64,000 nucleotides of DNA from NCBI GenBank assembly GCA_951406725.2, contig OX597819.1, positions 89,404,001 to 89,468,000 on the forward strand, given 5' to 3'. Each line of letters begins with the position of its first letter. The first letter of the stretch is position 1. The position numbers and the translations under genes were made by a program. Source of the stretch: Octopus vulgaris (Eukaryota). This document shows positions 3,164 through 44,101 of this stretch, piece after piece. The notes under the pieces were generated by a model. The model ran no database searches. It was not told the origin of the DNA and worked only from the letters and a program-made list of their open reading frames with translations.

Positions 3164-3510
3164 AGCTGGCATATGTAACACACTGCCTAAATACCAATCT
3201 TGAGAAATTAGAAAGAAGAGGGCTAATTCGAAGACAACAGATCCAATCCATCACCAGAACTGTAAAGACCAGTAAAACTTTCCAGAAGTTTATCATTTAA
3301 GTATATATGACCTTGTCTAGATATGCAACTATATGCACGAGCATACATGCATAAAACAAAGCATACCAATTTGCACATATACATATATACATACATACAA
3401 AAATACACTGTTGGTGTTGTTGAAATTCTAATGACGGAGCCTTGGATCTAGATTAGGAACCACCTCATTCTCTACTAGCAAGATTTCTTGAAATAAAACT
3501 GTATAATGAC
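3164..3510 (+). mobile_element. 5'-truncated RLE-type (R4-like) LINE 3' end embedded in (TACA)n
   Basis: Translates LAYVTHCLNTNLEKL...LIRRQQIQSITRTVKTSKTFQKFII*, homologous to the C-terminus of the element at 44350-46230 (QLQGTVKICKTFEGF); (TACA)n on both sides. Confidence 0.55.
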
Positions 3511-3681
3511 ATACATACATACATAATACATACATACATACATGCATGCATACATACATACATACATACATACATACATACATACATACATGCATGCATG
3601 CATGCATGCATACATACATACATACATACATACATACATACATACATACATACATGAATACATACATACATACGTACATAC

Positions 3682-5775
3682 ATTGAGGAGACCATTTCGT
3701 TAACATCAGCTGTAAATCGCTACGTTTTGTAATTTTAAGACAGTTTTTCTTGGATTCTAGCACATTGTCAACTGGACTGAATCCACATTCGATAAAATAA
3801 GATGAAGAAAAATGAATCAATAGTTCTCTTGCTGATGTAGAGATGTTGGGGGTATTTTCTTTCAACCTCGTCACATAGCCACATATTTGCACCGTTCAAT
3901 TTAAACAAAGTCTTCACTGATTCATCATGTCGTAATTCGGATAACGCTTCTTGGTATTCAATTACAAGCATCAGAAATGAAATGTCAATCAGCAGTGGTT
4001 GAGTTAACCAATGGAAAAAAATAATTCATTGCCTTCAAATCACAAAATCTGTCGTTGAAGTCCTTTATTAAGATATTTAAATGGTCAATAATTACGGTAG
4101 CAGCATCATTTGTTATCTCAAGTGGTATAACTGACTGAAATTGCTTTTGGAAAGATTTTTTTGGCATATTTCGAGGGCTATAATGAATCCAAAAATCTTT
4201 GCCTTCGCACCAGCAAACATCATGTTTGCACATTGGAGTTGTTTATTCGAGTTTCCAAGTTTCTCAAAGATGCTGTCAAATAATTGACAAACGCTTTTCC
4301 ATCCGTTGTTGACAGCATTTTCATTTCACATTTATTACCGAAAAAGTCATTAAGCTGATCAAATAATTCCATGAACCTTTTAAAGTTATTTCCATTTGAT
4401 AGCCATCTTACTTCTGTATGAAGCAATAATTGAACATGCTCGGCACTTTGATTTACACAAAACTGCTTAAAAAGACGTTCGGCTTTGGGATTTGCTTTAA
4501 TGCTATTGACACATTTGATCACGGCTCGTAGAACCTCGTTAAGAACAGAGGAAGTTTCTTGGCAACCAGGTTTTCTCGGTGTATGACGCAATGGACAATC
4601 AGCATGTTTGGATTTTCATCCTCCATCATTTCTAAGCATCCCCTTTTCTTGCCCATCATAGCAGGTGCATCGTCAGCCGTGCATGACAGTAAGTTTTCTT
4701 TAGGTATTTTTCTTGTATCCAAATAATGTTTAAGTTTGCTGTGAATATCTTTTGCTGTTGTTGTTGTTTCCAATGATTCGCAAAACAACTTCGCTTCCTG
4801 AAAGCCTTACATAAGTCAATAACAGGGCCTCACTGTCCCGAAATGTGGATTCATCCATTTGTAATGAGAATTTTCGTGATTTTAATGTCTCAGTAAGCTG
4901 GTTTTCAACATCTTGCCCTATCTCATCAATTGGAGATAGTATTATTACTGAGTGTCATGGCCCTGACCTATCTATCATCATTTTGTTGTACAGTTTTTAA
5001 GAACATTGAGATATCTAGTTTAATCAGTTGCTCTCCAATAGCATGATTCTTTCTATGCTTTGTTCTAAGCAGAGAAATTTCGTAGCTGGCTTTGAGGGCA
5101 CGAGTGCGGGATGCATGTTGTGCAGCATATAGTGAAGTGAGTATTGTTCGGTTTTCAAAATTTCCTTTCAGTAATTTGAAGTTCTCCAAATCTGAATTAG
5201 AATTGTTGGGATGTCTTATCTTCAAGTGCGTTTTTAGCCTGCTTGACCTCATTGACTCATTTTCTGATGACACATTAAGCAGAACTGTTTACGCTCATTA
5301 TGGTCATCAGGAATAAACCCAAACTTCAAAAACTCCACCGAATATTGACGAGACTTCTTCTTGCTTTGTTTACTCATTTTAAAAGGGGCTGATACAAATC
5401 CAAGAAAGCGATGAAGTGATGGAGATCACAATTTTTGCACAGCATAGAAAGAAAGGGATTCGAAGCATCAATCAGCAATAGTGAGCAGAGTTGACTGCTA
5501 CTTTTTTTATAAACACTTGACGCTGGACGATAGATATTGAAACAGAGAAACAAACGCCTAACAAATGCAGATACCTCACTCGATTGGTTGTAGCTACATC
5601 GATTCCCACGGTTCAAGTATAAATATTGCCTGGTGATGCTTTTTTTTTCATTTCAATGCCCAAATATAGGTTTAGGGTCGACAAGTGTGCGCTCAAGTCA
5701 CTTGCAAAAATTTTCACAACCCACGCTAACGCACGCCCCACCCCAATTTTCCACGTCCCACGTAGAGAAACACTG
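3682..5775 (-). mobile_element. hAT (Buster/Charlie-like) DNA transposon, degenerate, 3' end lost
   Basis: Terminal CAGTGTTTCTC on minus strand ending at 5775, flanked by CCCTAACC (NNNTANNN Buster-type target); transposase fragments inside. Confidence 0.85.
3683..5377 (-). pseudogene. hAT transposase pseudogene (ZBED8/SCAND3-like family)
   Basis: Motifs across frameshifted ORFs: MSKQSKKKSRQYSVEFLKFGF, LKTHLKIRHP, CTADDAPAMMG, HCVIHRENL, LLLHTEVRWLS, HFSSSYFIECGFS. Confidence 0.85.
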
Positions 5776-10415: not shown

Positions 10416-13400
10416 ATGGAAGACCTATTAATTGACATATTGCAGTTGCAAAAGCAACAGCAACAGCAGCCACGGGAGTTGCACTATCAACTACAATAGC
10501 AACAGCTAGAACACAATCAGTTACTGGAACTGATGTTGAAGACGGGAAACATTGCAAGTTTGTTTTTGCCAGACGGTGTAGCGAGTGTTATAACTGAATT
10601 TAGTTATAACCCAGAAGAGAGTTCAATTTTTTTCGGCGTACTTCAGAAAATACGAAGAAATCTTCAAGGAAGACTGCAAGTGATGGGCAGACGATGAAAA
10701 AGTGAATCTACTGCTACGGAAACTAGGTCCTTCAGAACATGAAAAATACAGCAATTTCAATGTTGCCAAAAAAAGTAATGTGAAATTTGTTTCGAGGAAA
10801 CAATTGAATTGCTATCCTAAATGTTCAGTGGTAAGAATTCTCTGTTTAACACTCGCTGGGAGTGTTTGAACCTAGTAAAAGAAGAGGACGAAGATTTTGT
10901 CGGTTATGCCGGAATCGTAAATAAAATGTGCGAAAAATTTAAACTGAAGGAATTATTTCCGGACATGTTTAAATGCCTCATCTTTGTGCAAGGTTTGGCG
11001 GCAAACAAAGATGAAGAAATACGTTCATGGATTCTTACAAAACTAGAACAGGTGGACCAGAATTTAACCCTGCAGGCAGTAGCAGAGGAATGTCAAAGAA
11101 TTATCAACCTGCGACAGGACGTAAAGAAAATTGAAAAAAAAAATTTTTTCTCACAAGAACAGACATATCGACCGGAATAAATAAAGAAAAAAGAATGTTA
11201 TGACGAAATCCATGCTATGGGTATGGAAGTCTGCATTTTAAGAAAGACTGTTCTTTTAAAACTCGGAAATGCTTTAGTTGTAAAAAATACGACATAAAAG
11301 CTTGCACTGCAGAGCGAAACAAAAAAGATCGAGAAAAAATTCTTCTAAAAAGGTTTGTTCAACGAAAAATCATGACAGCATCCAAAACGAAAAAAAAAAT
11401 AAGTATGCGTATGTAAAAATAAACGACGTGTACGTGAAACTACAACTAGACACAGGTAGCGACATTACAATTATTGATACCGACACGTAGAAGGAAATTG
11501 GGAAACCTACATTAAAGAAAACACCGAAAAGTGCGCGTGGCGTTACCGGTGAAAGATTACACTTCTTAGGCGAAATGGTAAGCGATATTACATTTCGTGG
11601 TAAAACCTGTAAAGCGAAGGTGTTTATGTAAAAAAATGCAACAAACTAGTTCGATACTGGATGGAGTTGTTAGATTTATGGGACCTCCCCATAAATCTGT
11701 TCTGTAAAAACATAAATGATTGTTCTTCCAGTAAGAATAAGGCGTTAGATGAACTGAAGAAAAAAATTTTAAATGCTTTTCCAAAAGTGCTGTCGGATAA
11801 ATTAGGTTTGTGTACTAATACTGAGGCATATTTCCAAATTAAGTGTTCAAACCAAAAAGAACGGTACCTTTGCTGTAATAAAACATGTTAAGGAAGAATT
11901 AGACGGATTAGAGAAAATTGGAGTCATTCAAAATGGTAAATATACAAAATAGGCAGCTCCAATGGTGTGTATAAAAAAATCAGAGGAACAAAATTAGGGT
12001 GTGTGCCGATTTTCCCATTGGTTTGAATGAGTGTATGAAAACGTGTCATTATCCGCTACTACTCCGGAGGATATTTTTGAAAAATTAAACGGGGGGCAAA
12101 ATATTTTCGAAACTGTATCTCTCCGATGCGTACCTACAAATTAGAGCAGATGGGTAATGTTCAAAATGCCTAACAGTGAATACGCATAAAGGACTATATA
12201 GGTATAACAGATTACTATTTGGTCTAAAGGTCGCACTTGCAATTTTTCAACAGGTTATGGATGCAATGTTATCAGACTGTGAATTTACAATTCCATACGT
12301 GGATGATATATTAATTAAAAGTGGATCTCGTGATCAGCATGTCGAGCATGTAAAATGTGTTTTTGAAACAATAAGAGATAACGGTTTCACACTGAGTGAA
12401 GAAAAATGTAAATTTTCCTTACCTAAAATTAAGTATTTTGGACAAATTATCGACAGGAATGGACAACGACCGGACCCGTCGAGGGCAGACGCAATTAAAA
12501 AAAAAGCCATCTCCGACTAATATAAGGACCTTACAAATTTTTCTAGGTCTAGCGAATTATTATCAAAACTATATACCAAATATGCATGAATTGAGATCTC
12601 CACGAAGTAATTTGCTAAAAAAGAATGTGAAGTGGAATTGGCCAAATAATTGTCAAGAGCCGTTTGACGATATTAAAAAATTATTAATATCGGATTTAAC
12701 ACTGGTTTGTTTCGATCCTGCAGCGGAGATCGTTGTAGCTTCTGACGCTTCTGAATACGACATAGGAGCAGTAATGCTACACAAATATAAAGACGGTAAT
12801 ACGAAGGTGGTGGTTCATGCCTCACGTTCTCTGATAGCGGCAGAGAAAAACTATTGTCAAATAGAGAAAGAAGCTCTAAAGATCATTTTTTCGGTGAAGA
12901 AATTTCACAGATTTCTGTACGGTAGAAGTTTTCGGCTACAGGCAGATCACCGACCATTATTAACAATTTGGGGCTCGAAGAAAGGAATCCCTACCCATAC
13001 TACAAATAGGTTACAACGTTGGGGGTACGGTATTGTTAAATTACGACTTTAAGATGGAATATACACCATCCAAGATGTTTGGCCATGTGGATTGTTTATC
13101 AAGGCTAATTCCAAAAATACGGAACTATTCGAAGATACCGTGAGTGCCGCGTTCGAGCGGAAAATGAAATAAAAATACATTTTGTGTAACGTCATTCGGG
13201 AGCTGCCAGTAACTGTTCAAGATATAAAATTAAAGTCGGAGAATGTCAAATACATTGCAAAGATGAAAGAAACGTTGACAGTAAAAGAAAATAAAAATAT
13301 ACGCAAATGCGAACCATTTTTCTCTGTTTTAATGTGTTGGTGTACGCACTACAAAAGCGTGTATTAACGACTTTCATATAAGACACCCATGGATTTCAAG

Positions 13401-14384
13401 AATGAAATCTGTAATGAGGAGTTACGTGTATTGGCCTACTATGGACCATGATATTGAACAAATGGTAAAATCCTGAAGAGGTTGTGTTCTCGCAGCAAAG
13501 TCATCACAGGTGAAGTTCCAATCGTGGCTTAGTACAGACAGTCCGTGGTCCAGGCTACATATAGATTTTTCTGGACCGGTATACGACGCGTATTATCTGA
13601 TCATAGTAGACAGCTATACCAAGTGACCGGATATATGTAAGTGCAGTCAACCAGCATCGAAGGTAACAATAAGGTCCTTTCATGTTTTTTTTTTTGTGCA
13701 ATACAGTGTCCTGGACACCATAGTATCGGATAACGGAACGAAGTTTTCGGGGTACGAATTTTAAAATTTCTGTGAGAATTATGAAATCAATCACATCTCT
13801 ACTACATCGTACCACCCGAGATCAAATGGGCAAGGAGAAAAGTTCGTAGACACATTTAAGCGAGCACTAAAAGAATCTGGAAATGAATTAGGCAATGATG
13901 CAGCACTAATTCAATTCTTAAGGGTTTACAGGGTAACACCTAACCCGAACACCTGTTCAGGAAAGTCGCCCGCAGAGCTAATATTTGCCCGGAATATAAA
14001 ATCAATTTTTGATAAATTGTTACCTACAAAAAAAAAAAAACGTATAGTGAAAACCCTAGAAATACAACAAAATATTTTAATGTGGGAGATAAAGTTCATT
14101 TCAAAATATATAAGAATGGAAGACAAGGTTGGGCGGGTGGTATGGTGACAAAAAGAATAAGCAGTATGATGTACATAATAAAAGGTCAAATAGGAGAGCG
14201 CAAACGACATTTGAACCAGTTGAAGACCAGATATAATGAAGAACGAGAAGAAATGCCAATGGAAGTTTGCTATGACCTGCTCGATGTTCCAACGCCAAAA
14301 GAGGTTGAGCTTAGGCGGATCAGCAATAGAAAGCGTAAACAAACAGAACGGTTAGAAATAGTCCCTAAGCGAAAGAAGTATTAA
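10416..14384 (+). pseudogene. gag-pol pseudogene
   Basis: Protease LQLDTGSDITII, RT PYVDDILI, RNase H DASEYDIGAV/EKEAL/DHRPL, integrase IDFSGP, VSDNGT, YHPRSNGQ; many stops and frameshifts. Confidence 0.9.
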
Positions 14385-21095: not shown

Positions 21096-22278
21096 TTACA
21101 TCACAATATTTACATAATTACACTGATGTTTGCCAGGGATGTATTGCAGTCTGTCAGCAGTAACTGGAGTACGTAGTTGAATTGATAGCTAAGAATGGCT
21201 TTGCACGGGAGGCGGGAAATACTCTGTTCTTCATAGTCGGCAATTCCTTTAATTTAAGATCGACTACCAACCAAGACTTGCTGTTTGTGTCACCTACGAG
21301 AGCCTATGGCTAAGAACTGGCTAGCTACTTATTTGTAGTTCTTGAGTCGATTACATCGACTCCAGTGTTCAACTGGTACTTACTTTATCGACCCCGAGAA
21401 GATGAAAGGCAAAGCCGATCTCGGCTGAATTTGAATCCAGAACGTAACGGCAGACGAAATACCTATTTCTTTACTACCCACAAGGGGCTAAACACAGAGA
21501 GGACAAACAAGGAGAGACAAACAGATTAAGTCGATTATATCGACCCCAGTGCGTAGCCCAAAAAGTGACACAGACAGACTGTATGTACCAAGAAAAAGAG
21601 GGGAAAGAGGACTTATTGGATGCGAACACAGCATTAGAACAAAAGAAAACAACATAGCATGGTATGTAAAAAAATGCCACAGAACTGCTATTATGAAAAG
21701 TAAGAAGGTCAGTGGTGAGGATATTATGTTCGTGGTACGTACTTGGAGAAGTGCATTGTAGCCGAAGAGATTCTTTTAAACACAGGTGGAGCAAGGACCA
21801 AGAATCCTGTGTTTGTCTGTTTTCTCCAAACCCTTCTCCAACCTCTCCGCTGATTCTGGTGCGCTTTCGCTTTTTATAGCATCCATTTACTCGGCAAAAT
21901 CTGGAGCTTTCGATAATGTGGCCAAAATGCTTGGTTGGTTTTCAGAGCAGTTGTCTGATCTTATGTGACCTGATCCTATTTCTAAACCTACGTGGTTTCG
22001 AATCTGAATCTAAGCCACGCTACATACCTGTCAGTCTGTCTGCTTGCTTGTTATCTAATCTTGTTCTTTACTTTTTAAAAAAATTTCTTTCTGTGATACA
22101 CGATCCCTTTTGATCGCCTTATATTTTTCCCGATCCCTTTTGATCGGAATTTTACATTTGTTCCCTTTTTTCCGTTTTTCTTTTCCATGTTCGAAAAGAA
22201 AAGCTCTACATTTGTATTTGTCCCCTCTGTGTTCAGCCATGTGTGGCCAATAAAGAAAGTTATCTGTCTGTCTGTCTA

Positions 22279-23000: not shown

Positions 23001-23318
23001 TATTTTATTGATAATGATGATGATGATGATGACAATAGCAAAAAACAACAACAACAATAAGGGCTTCAAATTTTGCTACAAGCGCAGCAGTTTTGGGGGA
23101 GGGGATGAGTCGATTACATCGACTCCAGTGTTCAACTGGTACTTACTTTATCGACCCCGAAAAGATGAAAGGCAAAGCCGATCTCGGCTGAATTTGAACC
23201 CAGAACGAAACGGCAGACGAAATACCTATTTCTTTACTACCCACAAGGGGCTAAACACAGAGAGGACAAACAAGGAGAGACAAACAGATTAAGTCGATTA
23301 TATCGACCCCAGTGCGTA

Positions 23319-24386
23319 GCCCAAAAAGTGACACAGACAGACTGTATGTACCAAGAAAAAGAGGGGAAAGAGGACTTATTGGATGCGAACACAGCATTAG
23401 AACAGAAGAAAACAACATAGCATGGTATGTAAAAAAATGCCACAGAACTGCTATTATTAAAAGTAAGAAAGTAAGGCTTGTGTAGGATGAAACATTGCAA
23501 AGATAAAGCACTCAACAAGCAATTGAAAACGAATGAAACTGAAAATAAGTAGGTAAAGAAAAGAATGTATGGACAATTTCATAGGGATGTTGAAGATAAG
23601 ACAGACAGAGAAAAAAGATGGATGACTAAAAGTGATTTAAAACCGGAAACGGAGGCTTTAATCTGTGATGCCCAAGAGTAAGCACTAAGAACAAACTACA
23701 TAGAATACAGAACAGACAACACATCAGAAAGTGATAAGTGCAGAATCTGTGGAGAAAATGGTGAAACCGTATGGCATATTACTAGCCAATGTATGCCACT
23801 AGCCCAGAAGGGAATATAAGGGACGCCACGACAATATAGCCAGGCTTGTCCATTGGACACTTTGCAATAAGTATGGACTTGACAGAGAATAAAATTGGTA
23901 CGACCACAAACCCGAAGGCATTATCGAAAATGATAATACAAAGATCCTGTGGGATTTTATGATTCAGTGTGACCATTAGATAGAGAATAGGAAGCCAGAC
24001 ACAGTCTTAATTGAGAATGAAAGCAAACTATGCTGGATCATAGATAAAACATGTCCAGCTGACAACAAGGTATGCGGTAAGGAAGAAAGAAAAGTCGAGA
24101 GATATGACAGGTTAGCTTGGGAGGTTTAGCAGTTGTGGTCGATGAAAAAGGTGGTAGTAATACCAATAATTGTCGGAGCTCTGGGAATAGTGAGTAAAAA
24201 TCTTGAGAAGTACATGGAACAAATAGGGGCTGCAATAATGGTGGAGCACTTGCAGAAAAGAGCACTACTTGGAACCGCTCGAATACTCCGGAAGGTGCTC
24301 GAAAAATTAGAGATGTTACTTTAGTTCACTGGTAATGAACAGCTGATTCCGTAGTATATCTCCAGCGTTAGAAGCTGTGCAAAGAC

Positions 24387-25039: not shown

Positions 25040-25399
25040 TCTAATTTTGGCACAAGAGAAGTAGAGTTTATCCTTTTCCTAACACCAAGTGTTCATACGT
25101 TGATTGTACCGTTCATTCATCTCATTAGTACTGAGTCTCATATATGTAGTTCCTCTGGGTACCATTAGGTGGAGTGTAAGTTTCCCTATATACAATGGTG
25201 TTGAACAGAATTAACTGGACAGTTGCAGACACTGCTTGGACTAGGGACTGTGTGGTTGCGTGTTGCCAGTTGTGGTTTTTAATTCTGGAAGTGATAATCT
25301 CTACGCAAGAATAGCTAACCTTAAAGTCGTGTACGTTAAAGAACTTATGATATTTATGTATAGTCGGAACTTTTAACTATATTCATATAGTATATCATT

Positions 25400-26579
25400 T
25401 TGAAGCGCAGATTGCAGCCTCTATTGATGTATACTCATGGTTTTGTTTTCAGTGTTTACATTTATTCGTTTATTTCTATATCTACATATTGAAATAAATT
25501 ACAGTAAATAAGAAAATCTGAGCAGTTTTATCGTATGAGTTCATAATAGACTGCAAAGTAGCGAAAATTGTTTGAGGTATTAGTTAAGCTTTTGGCTAGA
25601 AGACTTTCAATGAACGTACAGCTCAGCATTAATTCCAAAAATTTTCTACTGCAGAAGAGAATATTGAGCCTGAAGAAAGTTAGAGGTGACATTTTGCAGT
25701 TGACGACAGCTAAGTGAAGGTGGTTATTGAAGCGGACTCGCAAAAAACTGTAGAAGAGTTAAATGTTTAGAATTCAACAGTTGTCTGACATTTACACCAC
25801 AATGGAAATTATATATAAAAAAAAGAAGCTCGGCAATTGAAATTCGCATGAGCTAAATGAAAAAAAAAATGGTGTTATGAAGTCTGCTTAGTGCTTTTTT
25901 TTTTGTACAGGAAAAATTATTCATTTCTTGATCGTTTCGTGACTTACGGCGACAGATAGATACTAAACGACAACTGACAGTGTTACGTGCAGTAACTGGG
26001 TTCGAGGTGTAACAAAACACTTTTCTAAACCGAAGTTATATAAATAAAAAAAATATCCTCATTGTTTGGTAGTCTCAACACAATCTACGACAATTACTTG
26101 AATTCTGGCGAAACCACTACAGAAGAGAAGTATTTTCACCAAATGTACCGAGAACTGCAGTGTTTATGTCCAGCATTAGTTAAATAATAAAAGACCAATT
26201 CTTCTCCATGGCAACGCCCAACAACATGTTTTGTAAATGGCTCTGTACAACTAGAAGGAATGGAACTTCAAAACTCCACCTCACCAAGCTTACTCCCCAT
26301 ACCTCTCCCTGATCGAGTAACACCTTTTCAGGCATTTTGACTAATTCTCACAATGAGTTTTTAACAACCAAACAACAGCGTAAGATGAACTTCTAAAAAT
26401 TCATCGATTCCAGGACTCTGAATCCTATGCTACCAAAATAAATAGACGAGTGTCTTGTTAGCAAAAATGTATAAATTCCACTGATTATTATTTTGATTTA
26501 TAAAATTTATTCTGAGCTGAGATATTTTACTTTAAAGTTGATGATAAAAACTGGAATTATTTTTGCATCAATCTGGTAA
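25400..26579 (+). mobile_element. mariner transposon, degenerate
   Basis: Remnants of FLDR.VT.D, PILLH(D)NA, H.AYSP.LS; 3' TIR-like GGAATTATTTTTGCATCAATCTGGTA; 5' boundary approximate. Confidence 0.75.
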
Positions 26580-27749
26580 ATACAAAAACCAAATAAGGGC
26601 AACCATTCATGGACAGATGAAGAGCCAACATATGGGTTTGGTCAGGGCACCTCGCGATCCTTAATGGATTTCACCTGCAAGTAACCTGCATCCAGGTATT
26701 CAAAATGTTTAGTATTTATGGTGTCGCTAACTACTTCTAGGATCGGAGTGGCTTAGAAATTATTTTTTCTTGGTGGTTAGTGTTTAACAGACCATAACCT
26801 TGTAATGTGGTGTTCACCTGCTATCTATATCTTACAAACTTTACATAATCAAAGCTCATTTTTTCGAAGAGCCACATTGTTTATCCTTTCTTCAATCTTC
26901 TTAGAGCTCTTATATTTCGTCCATTAGTACCTTGTTTGCTATTGCAAGGATTATAAATTTCATAAGTTCTCGGGAGGAGTTTGGTTTCTCTTCGCCACGC
27001 CCTACTCGATTTTTGTTTGGATTCGATTTTTTCTAGTGATTTTTTTTTTTACTTTACTTCTGTTTCGACAGTGTGCCAGCTTTGTTCCTTCTCTATGTCT
27101 TCATCAGACAATAGGATGATACGGCTGGTTGTGTCCAGTTGTTTCACATAGGTTCTCTGGTCATCGACTGATCATGGAACCTCTGATAATCAATATCTGA
27201 CACTGGGAATGAGACGATTTCTTTCGTTATCCTTTGAGCTACAATAACCTGTGGTGCAACTGAAAATGGCAGCTTCTTATAACCTACTGTTGTCGCTAAT
27301 TGTGTTGTTGCCCACTTTCTCCTCTACCGTATCTTTTAAGCTCCTCTGGACAGAAAATCCAGAAATGGCTCTTATTTCCAAACATGTAACAGTCGGAATT
27401 TTTGTCCTACATCGCCAGTTTTATTGATTTTCTTTTCCCGTTCACAATGAAATGCAGGAGTAGATTTTTGGTCTTAGGGTATCATTAGGACCCGTATATT
27501 CCTTATTACTTGAAGAGAATGATGAGGGGTAGAGAGGGAGGTACTGCCTTCTAGTGTGTTTGTGAAAAGGTGGACAAGACTGGTGAGACTGAATGGATCG
27601 GTATTGACACTGAGTATACTTTTTCTGTATGTTATATATATTAGAAACCTGGAAGAGAGCACTTTCCCATGGTAGAGTATTCCAGGATTTTTGCATGGGA
27701 ATTACCACAAATTACCTGAAGTGGACTACTCCACGATTCAGGGCTCTAA

Positions 27750-41125: not shown

Positions 41126-41172
<47 letters not shown>

Positions 41173-41329
41173 ACAGCAGCATTCATCCTATATTTCTGGA
41201 CTGCCATATTAGCTTGTCAATAACAATTAATATCCAGTATCACTGCTGTAGTTTCCTTTAGAGAGACTTAGCAATATTAATATATATATATGAACACAAA
41301 TATTTACCTCTATTTAACTATCTCACATC

Positions 41330-41377
41330 GTCTCTGATGAAGGGATATCCATAATATCCCAGGAACAGCTGTAAGAC
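41330..41377 (+). ncRNA. minimal type I hammerhead ribozyme motif (core variant GGAA)
   Basis: GTCT-CTGATGA-A GGGATA/TATCCC A-GGAAC AGCT GTA-AGAC: stems I and II and palindromic stem III present; one core substitution. Confidence 0.7.
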
Positions 41378-41645
41378 TATATCTATATCTTTTTCCTTAT
41401 AAATGTCCTGAAAACTCCTCACGGCCTCGGCTTTGTTATCTCATTTTGTCTAATCGCTAGCCACTACACATTCTTTATTTTCTCTCCTTGTTTCTTTCTG
41501 TGGTCCTTTCTGTCGAAGAGCAGAATAAATCACCTCCAATAAATCACCTCCCGGACGACGTTATTCTCAACTAAGAGCTAATACGACCTTTTGGGGATTA
41601 TCGCCTAACATCGGTTGAGGACTCTCACAAACAAAAGAATCTAAT

Positions 41646-43769
41646 ATGGACGCATATCATATAGATTATTCTATGAAAAATATACCGATCCCATCAAAGG
41701 ATTTTTACTCTAAGAAACTTCTGCAAAAAATTACTGATGTAATTAAGCGTATAAGATGGAAGGCTTTCTTTTTTGACACAGAAGCGAACACCAAGGAAAA
41801 CATTTGCTATCGGATAAAATCCAAAAATTCCCTCCTAGGATTAAAGGCTTGGAAGATTTCGAAGCGGACCTGCTGAAGATCATGAGCAAAATAAAGTTTC
41901 GTAAGTCTTTTAACAATTTCCAACATAAATTGAAAAAAGATATTGATCATATAAAAAGCTCCAAGAAAAAAGCACTTTTTTCGGATAAAACCAAGAACTT
42001 ATACCTGGTAGATAACAGCAAATACACACAACTCTTACACAACAGCATCATTAATAATTATACTAAGGCTAGGGCACAGACATATAACGAAATTAATAAA
42101 GAAGCTAGCGTCATCGCCGCTAAACTTAAATTAGATAAAAAAATAGAAACCCTCCCCAAAAAGAGGCCTTTATTACTATTAAAGACCACAAAGAAAACTT
42201 CCTTTCCAATCCTAAATGTAGGCTTATCAACCCAGCCAAGTCAGAACTAGGGATTATTAGCAAAGAAATTTTAGATAAAATAAATACGAAAATTAAGACC
42301 GATACTAGGCTAGTGCAATGGTCCAATAGTATAGAAGTCGTAGACTGGTTTAAAGCTATTAAGAATAAGAAAAAAGCGAGGTTTACACAATTCGATATTG
42401 TTGATTTTTATGCCTCTATCTCTAAAGAACTGCTAGATAAAGCCCTAATCTTCGCTAGTGACTTCATAGAAATTAGTACCAATGATAAGGATATAATCTT
42501 CCATGCTAGAAAGACATTACTTTTCAGTGAGAATGCAAAGTGGGTAAAAAACACCGACACGGAGGGCGCTTTCGATGTGAGCATGGGTTCATATGATGGG
42601 GCAGGCATCTGTGATCTAATTGGACTCTTTCTCCTAGATACCTTCAGTAAGACATTCCCTAATGTACATTTCGCCATCTACAAAGATGATGCCCTCGCCT
42701 TAACAGCTAATACAAATGGACCAGCACAAGATCGTTTTAGGAAGGATATTATCCAGTTAATGAAACACTTCGGACTTAGTATAACTATAGACACTAACCT
42801 GACGGTTGTCAATTTCTTAGACGTTTCCTTAGATCTTAATAATAATATTTATAAGCCTTATAGGAAGCCCAATGATAGACTAAGTTATATTAATGTAGGT
42901 TCATGCCATCCCCCTATAGTATTCAAAAATTTAGTTAAAAATATTAGTAAGAGGATTTCTAGCCTCTCATCTAATGAGGACATCTTCAATAGCGTTGCCC
43001 CAGTTTATAATAAAGCTTTAAAAGATAGTGGTTTTAGCGAAAAAATAAAATATACACCTATCACCAGCCCAACAATAAGGAAAAGGAATAATAGAAATAG
43101 GAAGGTCATCTGGTTTACGCCCCTTACTCACCCGAGGTGGCCTTCAATATAGGTAAATATTTCCTAGCACTGATAGATAGACATTTTCCAGTTAACCATG
43201 CTTATAGGAAACTCTTCAATAGACACAATTTAAAAATTAGTTTTAGTTCAACTACCAATTTTAAAAACATAATCAATCATAACATACAAAAAACACAAGA
43301 AGAAAACAGCTGTTCATGCAGGAATAAAGAATTGTGCCCGCTAAATGGAGCTTGCATGTCCAAGACCATCATATATGAAGCTACCGTAAACTCTATAACC
43401 ACTAAAGACACCGTTTCGACAAAGAAATACGTGGGCCTGACAGAGGGTAATTTCAAGGCCAGGTTCAATAACCACACTTTGAGCTTTAGGCACTGGAACA
43501 AAAGAAAAGCGACACAATTATCCAATCATATTTGGTCTTTAAGAGATAAAGGTGTCGATTATAACATACAATGGAAGATTTTGGCCAGATGTAAGCCCTA
43601 TACTAACGGCAGCGGAAGGTGCGGTTTATGCGACATGGAGAGATGGCTTATCTGGAAAAGCAGCTTAGACCCTACCACATGTCTAAATACAAGGACAGAG
43701 CTTTTCGGATCATGCCCACATGTGACTAAATTTCTGTTACGTTTTTGGTCCCCTAAAGAAAACGGATAG
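41646..43769 (+). CDS. PLE reverse transcriptase-GIY-YIG endonuclease (~708 aa after repairing three frameshifts)
   Basis: YSMKNIPIP, SDKTKNLY, RLINPAKSELG, FDIVDFYASI, SMGSYDG, YKDD, NFLDV, CSCRNKELCPLNGAC, IIYEA...YVGLTEGNFKARFNNH, CGLC...SCPH; no in-frame stop in the repaired frame. Confidence 0.8.
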
Positions 43770-43963
43770 AACATGCTTTCTGTGTTATGTCCCAAGAAGA
43801 TTTTATATATTTTTATATATTTTTATATATTTTTATGTATTTTTATATAATTTTTATGACGAAAAATGCGAGCGATGTATAAGTACGCAGGCAAAGCAGA
43901 GTTATAACAGAGTAATTTCCCTTCATTTTTAACGGTATTTTTTCATAACGTTTTCAAATAGCC

Positions 43964-44026
43964 AGATAACCGAAGAGATGGTGTTGTGGATTTCCACTTC
44001 GGCATCTGAAACTCAGAGTTTTATCT
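43964..44026 (+). ncRNA. hammerhead-like motif in PLE 3' tail
   Basis: Stem I AGATAA/TTATCT, core CCGAAGA...(T)GAAA, stem II GATG/CATC, stem III CTC-A-GAG, triplet GTT; non-canonical core. Confidence 0.6.
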
Positions 44027-44055
44027 TGACTACCGAGTAATGTAACATATTGTAT

Positions 44056-44101
<46 letters not shown>

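What the first reader, a model, noticed from the sequence alone, without database searches (positions are those of the whole stretch)
41520..44055. Possibly intact Naiad-like Penelope retroelement hidden by three homopolymer frameshifts
Seen: the ORF fragments join into one ~708-aa RT + C-terminal GIY-YIG protein if one base is restored at each of three short runs (AAAAATTCCCTCC ~41825, CCCCAAAAAGAG ~42160, ACGCCCCTTAC ~43120). There are no in-frame stops, unlike every other transposon ORF here. Knowledge: DKT in place of DKG, a CxCx5C linker (CSCRNKELC) and a (TA)n boundary match the Naiad/Chlamys group of PLEs as I recall it. Inference: the frameshifts may be long-read consensus errors, so this could be a young, active element and the enzyme source for the nearby hammerhead elements.
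Basis: partly seen in the sequence, partly recalled or inferred. Interest (0 to 1): 0.75.

Follow-up and report, generated by a model that had tools for sequence, protein, structure and literature searches.

The report
Young Hydra-type Penelope jumping gene
This is one copy of a very young family of Penelope-like jumping genes (Hydra type, not Naiad) with at least 50 unbroken copies elsewhere in the same genome; its three breaks are likely sequencing errors, and the family's insertions suggest that both cut DNA ends are copied from two fixed RNA start points.

Summary
Observation confirmed; clade wrong. Window 41537-44060 is a Penelope-like retroelement whose ORF (41646-43769) is one base shorter than natural copies at three runs. 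At least 50 copies elsewhere carry the unbroken 708-aa ORF, about 0.3-0.4% apart. It has every Hydra-clade hallmark tested (C-terminal GIY-YIG, RWK, DKT, CxCx5C, CxxC/CxH, no CCHH, under 3 kb, (TA)n targets) and fails Naiad; an octopus Hydra family is already published. The short runs hit 7-24% of listed copies, follow a Poisson pattern, are not inherited with substitutions, and are not seen at 2% in four contig sets: likely assembly errors (about 0.75), but RT slippage remains possible and one control disagrees. This copy is probably not a source: it lacks the family's 62-nt head and has five private substitutions. The neighbouring hammerhead pieces belong to older, unrelated families. Of most interest: all 29 clean two-armed insertions end at one short and one long site, 66 nt apart. 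The hammerhead has a fixed U4C core, shared with a young 360-bp retrozyme in this genome.

The parts
41130..41170 (.). (TA)n tract upstream of the composite 5' flank
41171..41290 (+). Unassigned flank, ending in a short TA-rich tract
   Evidence: nearly all other hits of 41172-41523 begin at query 103-126 or later
41291..41454 (+). 3' end of an older, unrelated hammerhead-bearing repeat (family A); core CTGATGA at 41334-41340, GAAA read as GGAA in this copy; probably resident before the Hydra insertion (inferred)
   Evidence: best other copies 95% or less among 40 of 4638 candidates scored; natural 3' end followed by (AT)n; core comparison
41453..41522 (+). First 70 nt of another short hammerhead repeat (family B), cut off inside hammerhead loop II
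   Evidence: best other copies 97% among 40 of 518 scored; full family-B structure in L044-L050
41524..41551 (+). 14-nt tandem duplication at the 5' junction; the family's 62-nt head and upstream pseudo-LTR are missing in this copy
41537..44060 (+). Body of the Hydra-clade Penelope-like element (family unit about 2589 nt with head)
   Evidence: 74 matches at up to 100% identity, 30 of 6200 candidates scored; junctions
41646..43769 (+). RT-endonuclease ORF, 708 aa in unbroken sister copies, broken here at three runs
41754..41762 (+). RWK motif (Hydra hallmark)
   Evidence: R 100%, W 99%, K 77% in 111 relatives
41823..41827 (+). Break 1: A5 run (A6 in unbroken copies); short in 14 of the first 100 listed of 185 copies
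41984..41992 (+). DKT motif
42154..42157 (+). Break 2: C4 run (C5 in unbroken copies); short in 24 of the first 100 listed of 254 copies
42679..42690 (+). RT catalytic motif YKDD (YRDD in 99% of relatives; both aspartates kept)
43120..43123 (+). Break 3: C4 run (C5 in unbroken copies); short in 7 of the first 100 listed of 750 copies
43311..43337 (+). CxCx5C linker (CSCRNKELC)
   Evidence: C 100/100/99% in 111 relatives
43368..43721 (+). GIY-YIG endonuclease (IIY...YVG, R, H, E, N kept; CxxC before E, CxH after N; no CCHH cysteines)
   Evidence: Pfam GIY-YIG E=0.011, below cut-off; conservation
43964..44026 (+). Type I hammerhead motif with variant core CCGAAGA (U4C); predicted cut after 44020; cleavage untested
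   Evidence: only hit of a descriptor scan, 0-1 per shuffle in 20 shuffles; constrained fold -15.7 vs free -17.1 kcal/mol; no Rfam hit
44053..44098 (.). (TA)n target; this copy ends at the family's short site (about 44053-44060), without the 66-nt tail

Best explanation
This is a 5'-clipped copy of a very young, still-coding Hydra-clade Penelope-like retrotransposon, and its three one-base breaks are likely errors of the assembly's consensus at homopolymer runs. How the family works (known for the class, inferred here): read-through RNA from tandem copies makes the 708-aa RT-GIY-YIG protein; the endonuclease would cut both strands of a (TA)n tract; each freed DNA end would prime reverse transcription on the same template at one of two fixed sites 66 nt apart; the two cDNAs would stop at variable points and be joined head to head. 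This gives the inverted two-armed insertions with a tail on exactly one end. Shown: anatomy, copy numbers, intact ORFs, (TA)n targets, the one-short-one-long rule, shared variants between arms. Inferred: the error origin of the breaks, two-ended priming, present-day activity. This copy is single-armed, landed at the 3' end of older hammerhead repeats and lost its own head, so it is probably a passenger, not a source.
For: Intact family: 50 of 63 scored hits are full-length without stop (hand count; a floor); 11 of 41 ORF-spanning copies in a coordinate-order sample are open; mean pairwise difference 0.44% in 54 copies; shared variants 8 synonymous to 10 non-synonymous against 423 to 1701 sites. 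Hydra motifs match PMC8557442; fold pLDDT 93.8 with telomerase RT as top structural match. Error origin: 23 indels in 171 C5 copy-sites (22 deletions) against 0.08% singleton substitutions; per-copy counts 14/15/8/3/1 against Poisson 14.0/15.0/8.1/2.9/0.8, no link with private substitutions (rho 0.17, p 0.29); arms of one insertion differ at 0.23% of bases against 1.03% between insertions, but at 8.4% of runs against 6.2% (24 insertions); four runs laid on an unbroken copy list no deletion at 2% or more at the three sites, although X12 keeps minor substitution alleles near 1%; X19, X1 and X11 contigs carry the long form at all three sites. Two-ended rule: 29 of 29 clean two-armed insertions among 38 examined. 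A related PLE cuts and extends both strands and starts RT at two internal sites that define the tail (PMC11167929).
Against: All read evidence is from assembled contigs, which drop variants; no record bridges this locus's unique flank to a break. In one search X12 showed the long form in only 0.6%, 39% and 50% of depth (I read this as contigs ending at the runs; not proved). The C5 run of a young 360-bp retrozyme in the same assembly is short in only 1 of 191 units and the element's third C5 run in none, so there is no general C5 under-call. Short forms at break 2 are enriched in one young subfamily (P<0.001), though 19 of 39 near-identical pairs disagree. The sequencing technology is unknown to me. 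The window copy has five private substitutions, so it is not among the youngest. No tree with reference PLE clades was built.
Confidence: 0.75

Rival explanations
1. The short runs are real: the element's own RT slips by one base at particular runs on each pass, so about two thirds of full-length copies, this one included, are dead on arrival.
For: Independent per-copy events, discordant arms and no age trend fit RT slippage as well as sequencing error; the effect is site-specific; no such rate at the retrozyme C5 run (1 of 191).
Against: No deletion at 2% or more in four contig sets, including X12, which keeps rare alleles; 7-24% per pass is far above the slippage rates I recall for other RTs (recalled, no call); 4 indels in 43 multi-copy histone genes, which have no RT step, hint at residual assembly indels (small, enriched sample).
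Confidence: 0.2
2. It is a Naiad/Chlamys element.
For: (TA)n targeting is shared with many Naiads, including cephalopod ones.
Against: The endonuclease is C-terminal, the motif is DKT not DKA, there is no CxC before the RT and no CCHH, a hammerhead is present, and the unit is 2.6 kb not 3.4-4.4 kb.
Confidence: 0.01
3. The 5' flank (family A and B pieces) was captured by template switching during this insertion, i.e. this enzyme copies the neighbouring hammerhead RNAs.
For: Both pieces are in the same orientation and directly abut the element; 2-nt overlap at the A/B junction; family B is cut inside its hammerhead.
Against: No identical source copy among those scored (best 95% and 97%); family A ends at its natural 3' end, which normally sits on (AT)n, this family's target; no shared 3' sequence with the Hydra unit. 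Nested insertion with loss of about 125 nt of family B is simpler.
Confidence: 0.15

Closest known systems
Hydra clade of Penelope-like elements, nearest Hydra-1_Obim from Octopus bimaculoides (Craig et al. 2021, PMC8557442; read parts 1, 2 and 4 of 10, found passages, supplement parts 1-2 and passages of its alignments)
   Same: Single ORF of about 708-709 aa, C-terminal GIY-YIG, RWK, DKT, CxCx5C, CxxC and CxH, no CCHH, about 2.5-2.6 kb, (TA)n targets, 3' hammerhead. By eye 28 of the first 44 residues are identical to Hydra-1_Obim.
   Different: [quoted passage not shown]
PAc (Poseidon) from Anolis carolinensis (Frangieh et al. 2024, PMC11167929; parts 1-2 of 4 read)
   Same: RT plus C-terminal GIY-YIG; AT-rich targets; both strands cut and extended; two internal RT start sites that define an optional tail.
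   Different: Different clade; 30-40 nt tail; the paper saw no difference in start site between strands in vitro, whereas here each insertion uses one site at each end (29 of 29).
Naiad / Chlamys (PMC8557442)
   Same: GIY-YIG plus telomerase-like RT; inverted and tandem insertions; (TA)n bias in many Naiads.
   Different: N-terminal endonuclease, CxC linker and IFD, no canonical hammerhead; Naiad has DKA and CCHH and is 3.4-4.4 kb.
Animal non-LTR retrozymes (PMC7229834, passages seen; bioRxiv 10.64898/2026.07.22.740005, part 1 of 5 read)
   Same: Type I hammerhead, tandem copies, proposed to be mobilised by PLEs; a 360-bp one in this genome shows the same two-armed, two-site (TA)n insertions and a U4C core.
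   Different: Non-coding; no detectable sequence likeness to this element; its two ends are 44-46 nt apart, not 66.

Membership tests
Hydra-clade PLE | Single ORF, element under 3 kb | tested here: met
   708 aa, unit about 2589 nt
Hydra-clade PLE | C-terminal GIY-YIG endonuclease | tested here: met
   aa 576-693; Pfam E=0.011 on the fragment, below cut-off; Y, G, R, H, E, N conserved 99-100% in 111 relatives
Hydra-clade PLE | RWK motif and DKG changed to DKT | tested here: met
   aa 37-39 and 114-116
Hydra-clade PLE | CxCx5C linker; CxxC and CxH around the E and N; CCHH absent | tested here: met
   C557-C559-C565, C660-C663, C691-H693; no cysteine between IIY and YVG
Hydra-clade PLE | No N-terminal CxC, no insertion in fingers | tested here: met
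   No CxC before the RT; motif A to motif B collinear with Hydra-1_Obim by eye, not by a computed alignment
Hydra-clade PLE | Insertion into (TA)n | tested here: met
   both ends of nearly all insertions
Hydra-clade PLE | Canonical hammerhead near the 3' end | tested here: inconclusive
   Same place and architecture (stems I-III, palindromic stem III), but core is CCGAnGA in all 170 occurrences (overlapping loci counted more than once); U4C lowers activity in vitro (PMC3088659 passage); cleavage untested
Hydra-clade PLE | RT phylogeny with reference Hydra proteins | not testable with these tools
   Reference proteins were visible only as supplement text and were not available as tool inputs
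Naiad | N-terminal GIY-YIG | tested here: not met
   Endonuclease is C-terminal
Naiad | DKA motif, CxC linker, CCHH finger | tested here: not met
   DKT; no CxC before RT; no CCHH
Naiad | 3.4-4.4 kb, no canonical hammerhead | tested here: not met
   2.6 kb with a full type I hammerhead fold
Penelope/Poseidon, Neptune, Nematis | DKG and CCHH in the endonuclease | tested here: not met

The most novel reading that the evidence does not exclude
This Hydra family is a currently active retrotransposon that inserts by coupled two-ended priming, one enzyme subunit per cut DNA end and each at its own fixed site on one RNA, and it is the enzyme that spreads the young 360-bp retrozyme with the same U4C hammerhead and the same two-armed (TA)n footprint, giving a matched enzyme-passenger pair for the open question of what mobilises animal retrozymes.
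Probability: 0.25. Interest if true: 0.7.

Novelty: new member of a known kind. Interest (0 to 1): 0.4.

Why it matters
The class and clade are known, and an octopus member is published, so the element itself is no surprise. Its value is practical. No biochemical work on a Hydra element turned up in my searches, and this family offers dozens of natural unbroken ORFs. Its insertions give a sharp, testable rule (one short and one long end in 29 of 29) that extends the in vitro picture from the anole element. It is a candidate enzyme for young retrozymes in the same genome. It also shows that about two thirds of young copies look broken in this assembly, probably falsely, which would bias counts of intact transposons.

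Tried and rejected
Pfam on the whole protein: no family; Rfam: no hit in the window; profile against PDB sequences: nothing meaningful. The single-sequence fold was unfinished when last checked and was not collected. Sequencing-run search: no RNA holder listed on record; RNA labels are guesses. Counts of short forms among the first 30 loci (4, 15, 13 of 30) were dropped because the window query favours copies with the same deletions; the pattern counts and the coordinate-order sample replace them. My first idea that X12 is a noisy long-read run was dropped. Short elements sharing the 3' end (36 pattern matches, 12 read) turned out to be truncated ends of an older sister subfamily at about 90% identity, not a non-autonomous partner. 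No sequence likeness between this element and the 360-bp retrozyme (BLAST; start-site regions scored 56 against a shuffled mean of 59). Histone-gene control inconclusive: 4 indels in 43 genes, sample enriched for partial hits, no C5 runs. The window's 5' end coincides with the long start site, but 5' ends do not cluster there (8 junctions among 35 copies, none at that position). No rule that the short arm reaches further 5' than the long arm. Earlier findings near the window or by sequence: none. The methylation and nanopore explanation of site-specific errors was not tested; the papers listed were seen only as a search listing.

Full report
1. Observation. The window is G000:C6:89404001-89468000 of a 2.8-Gb genome. 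Window 41537-44060 has 74 matches, most at 98-100% identity, with only 30 of 6200 candidates scored. Four of the 30 loci fetched hold one unbroken ORF, exactly 708 aa from its ATG (P0001). The window copy is one base shorter at A6, C5 and C5 runs (41823, 42154, 43120) and has no stop. The host is probably an octopus; I infer this from the closest described family and the genome's size, and did not determine the assembly.

2. Family. A protein search scored 63 of 38,182 candidates: by my count 50 are full length without a stop, 8 have one stop and 5 are short at the 5' end (a floor). Exact patterns count 185, 254 and 750 copies at the three sites, the 3'-rising series expected from 5' truncation. 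Fifty-four copies differ by 0.44% on average (median 0.33%; a score-selected sample). In the first 60 of the 185 site-1 copies in coordinate order, 41 span the ORF: 11 open, 2 with a stop only, 28 frameshifted. Variants shared by three or more copies are 8 synonymous, 10 non-synonymous and 1 stop against 423 and 1701 sites, which suggests selection on source lineages. A published annotation of Octopus vulgaris lists 30 recently active Penelope families without naming clades in the main text (PMC13282606, passages; supplements not seen, so this family may be in its library).

3. Clade. Craig et al. (PMC8557442) define Naiad by an N-terminal endonuclease, DKA, CxC, IFD and CCHH, and Hydra by a C-terminal endonuclease, RWK, DKT, CxCx5C, CxxC/CxH, no CCHH, under 3 kb, (TA)n and a hammerhead. 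P0001 has all the Hydra protein motifs, conserved in 111 relatives. A search found 1027 relatives, the best at 52% identity, none of the 120 listed named. Hydra-1_Obim is closer by eye (28 of the first 44 residues) but has another hammerhead, so this is a separate family. The fold is confident (pLDDT 93.8, pTM 0.90) and matches telomerase RT best (E 5e-9). No reference tree was built.

4. Are the breaks real? For error: short forms are 14, 24 and 7 of the first 100 listed copies (hand counts). Indels hit 23 of 171 C5 copy-sites (22 deletions), 26 of 500 A6/T6 sites, 4 of 547 A5/T5 sites and 5 of 23,262 sites in runs of four or fewer; singleton substitutions are 0.08%. Counts per copy fit a Poisson law and do not rise with private substitutions. 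In 24 of the 29 two-armed insertions (tandem and very short-armed ones left out), the arms differ at 61 of 26,225 bases (0.23%; between insertions 1.03%) but at 15 of 179 runs (8.4%; between 6.2%), so run length is not inherited from the template. Laid on an unbroken copy, four runs show no deletion at 2% or more at the three sites, though X12 keeps substitution alleles near 1% and X19 and X6 do report a deletion in the 3' UTR. Against: these are contigs, which drop variants; X12's tallies were ambiguous (0.6%, 39%, 50% long form); break 2 is enriched in one young subfamily (P<0.001), though 19 of 39 near-identical pairs disagree; the third C5 run is never hit and a retrozyme C5 run in only 1 of 191 units; the histone control is inconclusive. 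I put assembly error at about 0.75 and RT slippage at about 0.2.

5. This copy. It carries five substitutions seen in 1 of 54 copies: one in the 5' UTR, three synonymous and one M36I (codon positions worked out by hand). It lacks the 62-nt head and upstream pseudo-LTR; 27 of 35 comparable copies keep both as far as the fetched edge. A 2619-nt contig of run X1 (RNA status a guess) spans the unit and runs through the 3'-to-5' junction, unit length plus 30 nt. It lacks the window's private changes and matches the substitution pattern of unbroken copy L057: a weak hint of read-through or circular RNA from another locus. Upstream of the body lie a 14-nt duplication, 70 nt of a short hammerhead repeat cut in loop II (family B, best other copy 97%) and the 3' end of another (family A, best 95%, GAAA read GGAA here). 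Neither shares sequence with this family's 3' end or head beyond chance words.

6. Mechanism. Copies end at one of two places: the short site (about window 44060) or 66 nt further, after the head (43 and 54 ends, overlapping loci counted more than once). Of 38 insertions fetched, 29 are clean two-armed inverted structures, 4 are compound or disrupted and 5 single-armed or gapped; all 29 have one short and one long end. The arms cover the same 3' region and share variants: 27 are private to both arms of one insertion. [quoted passage not shown] The simplest model is coupled priming of both cut ends, one at each site (inferred). One targeted search found only a general review, which I did not read, so I cannot say that the strict rule is unpublished.

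7. Hammerhead and retrozyme lead. The 3' hammerhead (43964-44026) is the only descriptor hit in the window. Its core is CCGAnGA in all 170 occurrences; all Hydra hammerheads in File S2 have CTGA; 2 of 12 ends of an older sister subfamily show CTGA. U4C lowers cleavage in vitro but is tolerated in a viroid (PMC3088659 passage). Earlier AI notes pointed to a young 360-bp retrozyme. I checked it: it has a CCGATGA core and two fixed ends, one of each in all 12 of 20 arrays where both ends were seen. But its ends are 44-46 nt apart and it has no sequence likeness to this element. A PLE enzyme is likely; this family is a candidate, not shown.

8. Verdict. A real, new family of a known clade: Hydra, not Naiad; young, with many natural intact copies; breaks probably artefactual; this copy probably passive. 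Interest 0.4, mainly for the two-ended rule and the retrozyme lead.

Noticed in passing
window 25248-25400 (-): Decayed remnant of another Hydra-like ORF (profile hit E 2e-7 to positions 505-555, with stops).
   Followed up: partly
window about 27060-27107 (-): Hammerhead-like core (CTGATGA...GAAAC) without a good stem I; about 1.7 kb from the remnant above; not assigned.
   Followed up: no
window 10821-14381 (+): Broken Ty3/Gypsy-like element in short ORF pieces (gag-, RT-, RNase H- and integrase-like by eye; no family search run).
   Followed up: no
window 3431-4615 (-): Pieces that look like a decayed hAT-type transposase (by eye).
   Followed up: no
window 21400-21700 and 23150-23500 (-): Two near-identical copies of about 300 nt, roughly 1.8 kb apart, each ending in a SINE-like repeat; possible local duplication.
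   Followed up: no
L153:719-4989 (G000:C6, 5.54 Mb before the window) and L223-L242: Young 360-bp retrozyme arrays with a U4C hammerhead and two fixed 3' ends (unit 310-312 and 356-357), one of each per two-armed array.
   Followed up: partly
L141-L152: Short, mostly two-armed ends of an older sister subfamily (about 90% identical), with the tail again on one arm; 2 of 12 have the canonical CTGA core.
   Followed up: partly
L273, L275, L279, L283: Four histone genes (three H3, one H2A) with one- or two-base indels at short runs; errors or pseudogenes.
   Followed up: partly
L035:1673-2880: Tc1/mariner-like element inserted in the TA tract right after a family-A end, another sign that these tracts are insertion hot spots.
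   Followed up: no
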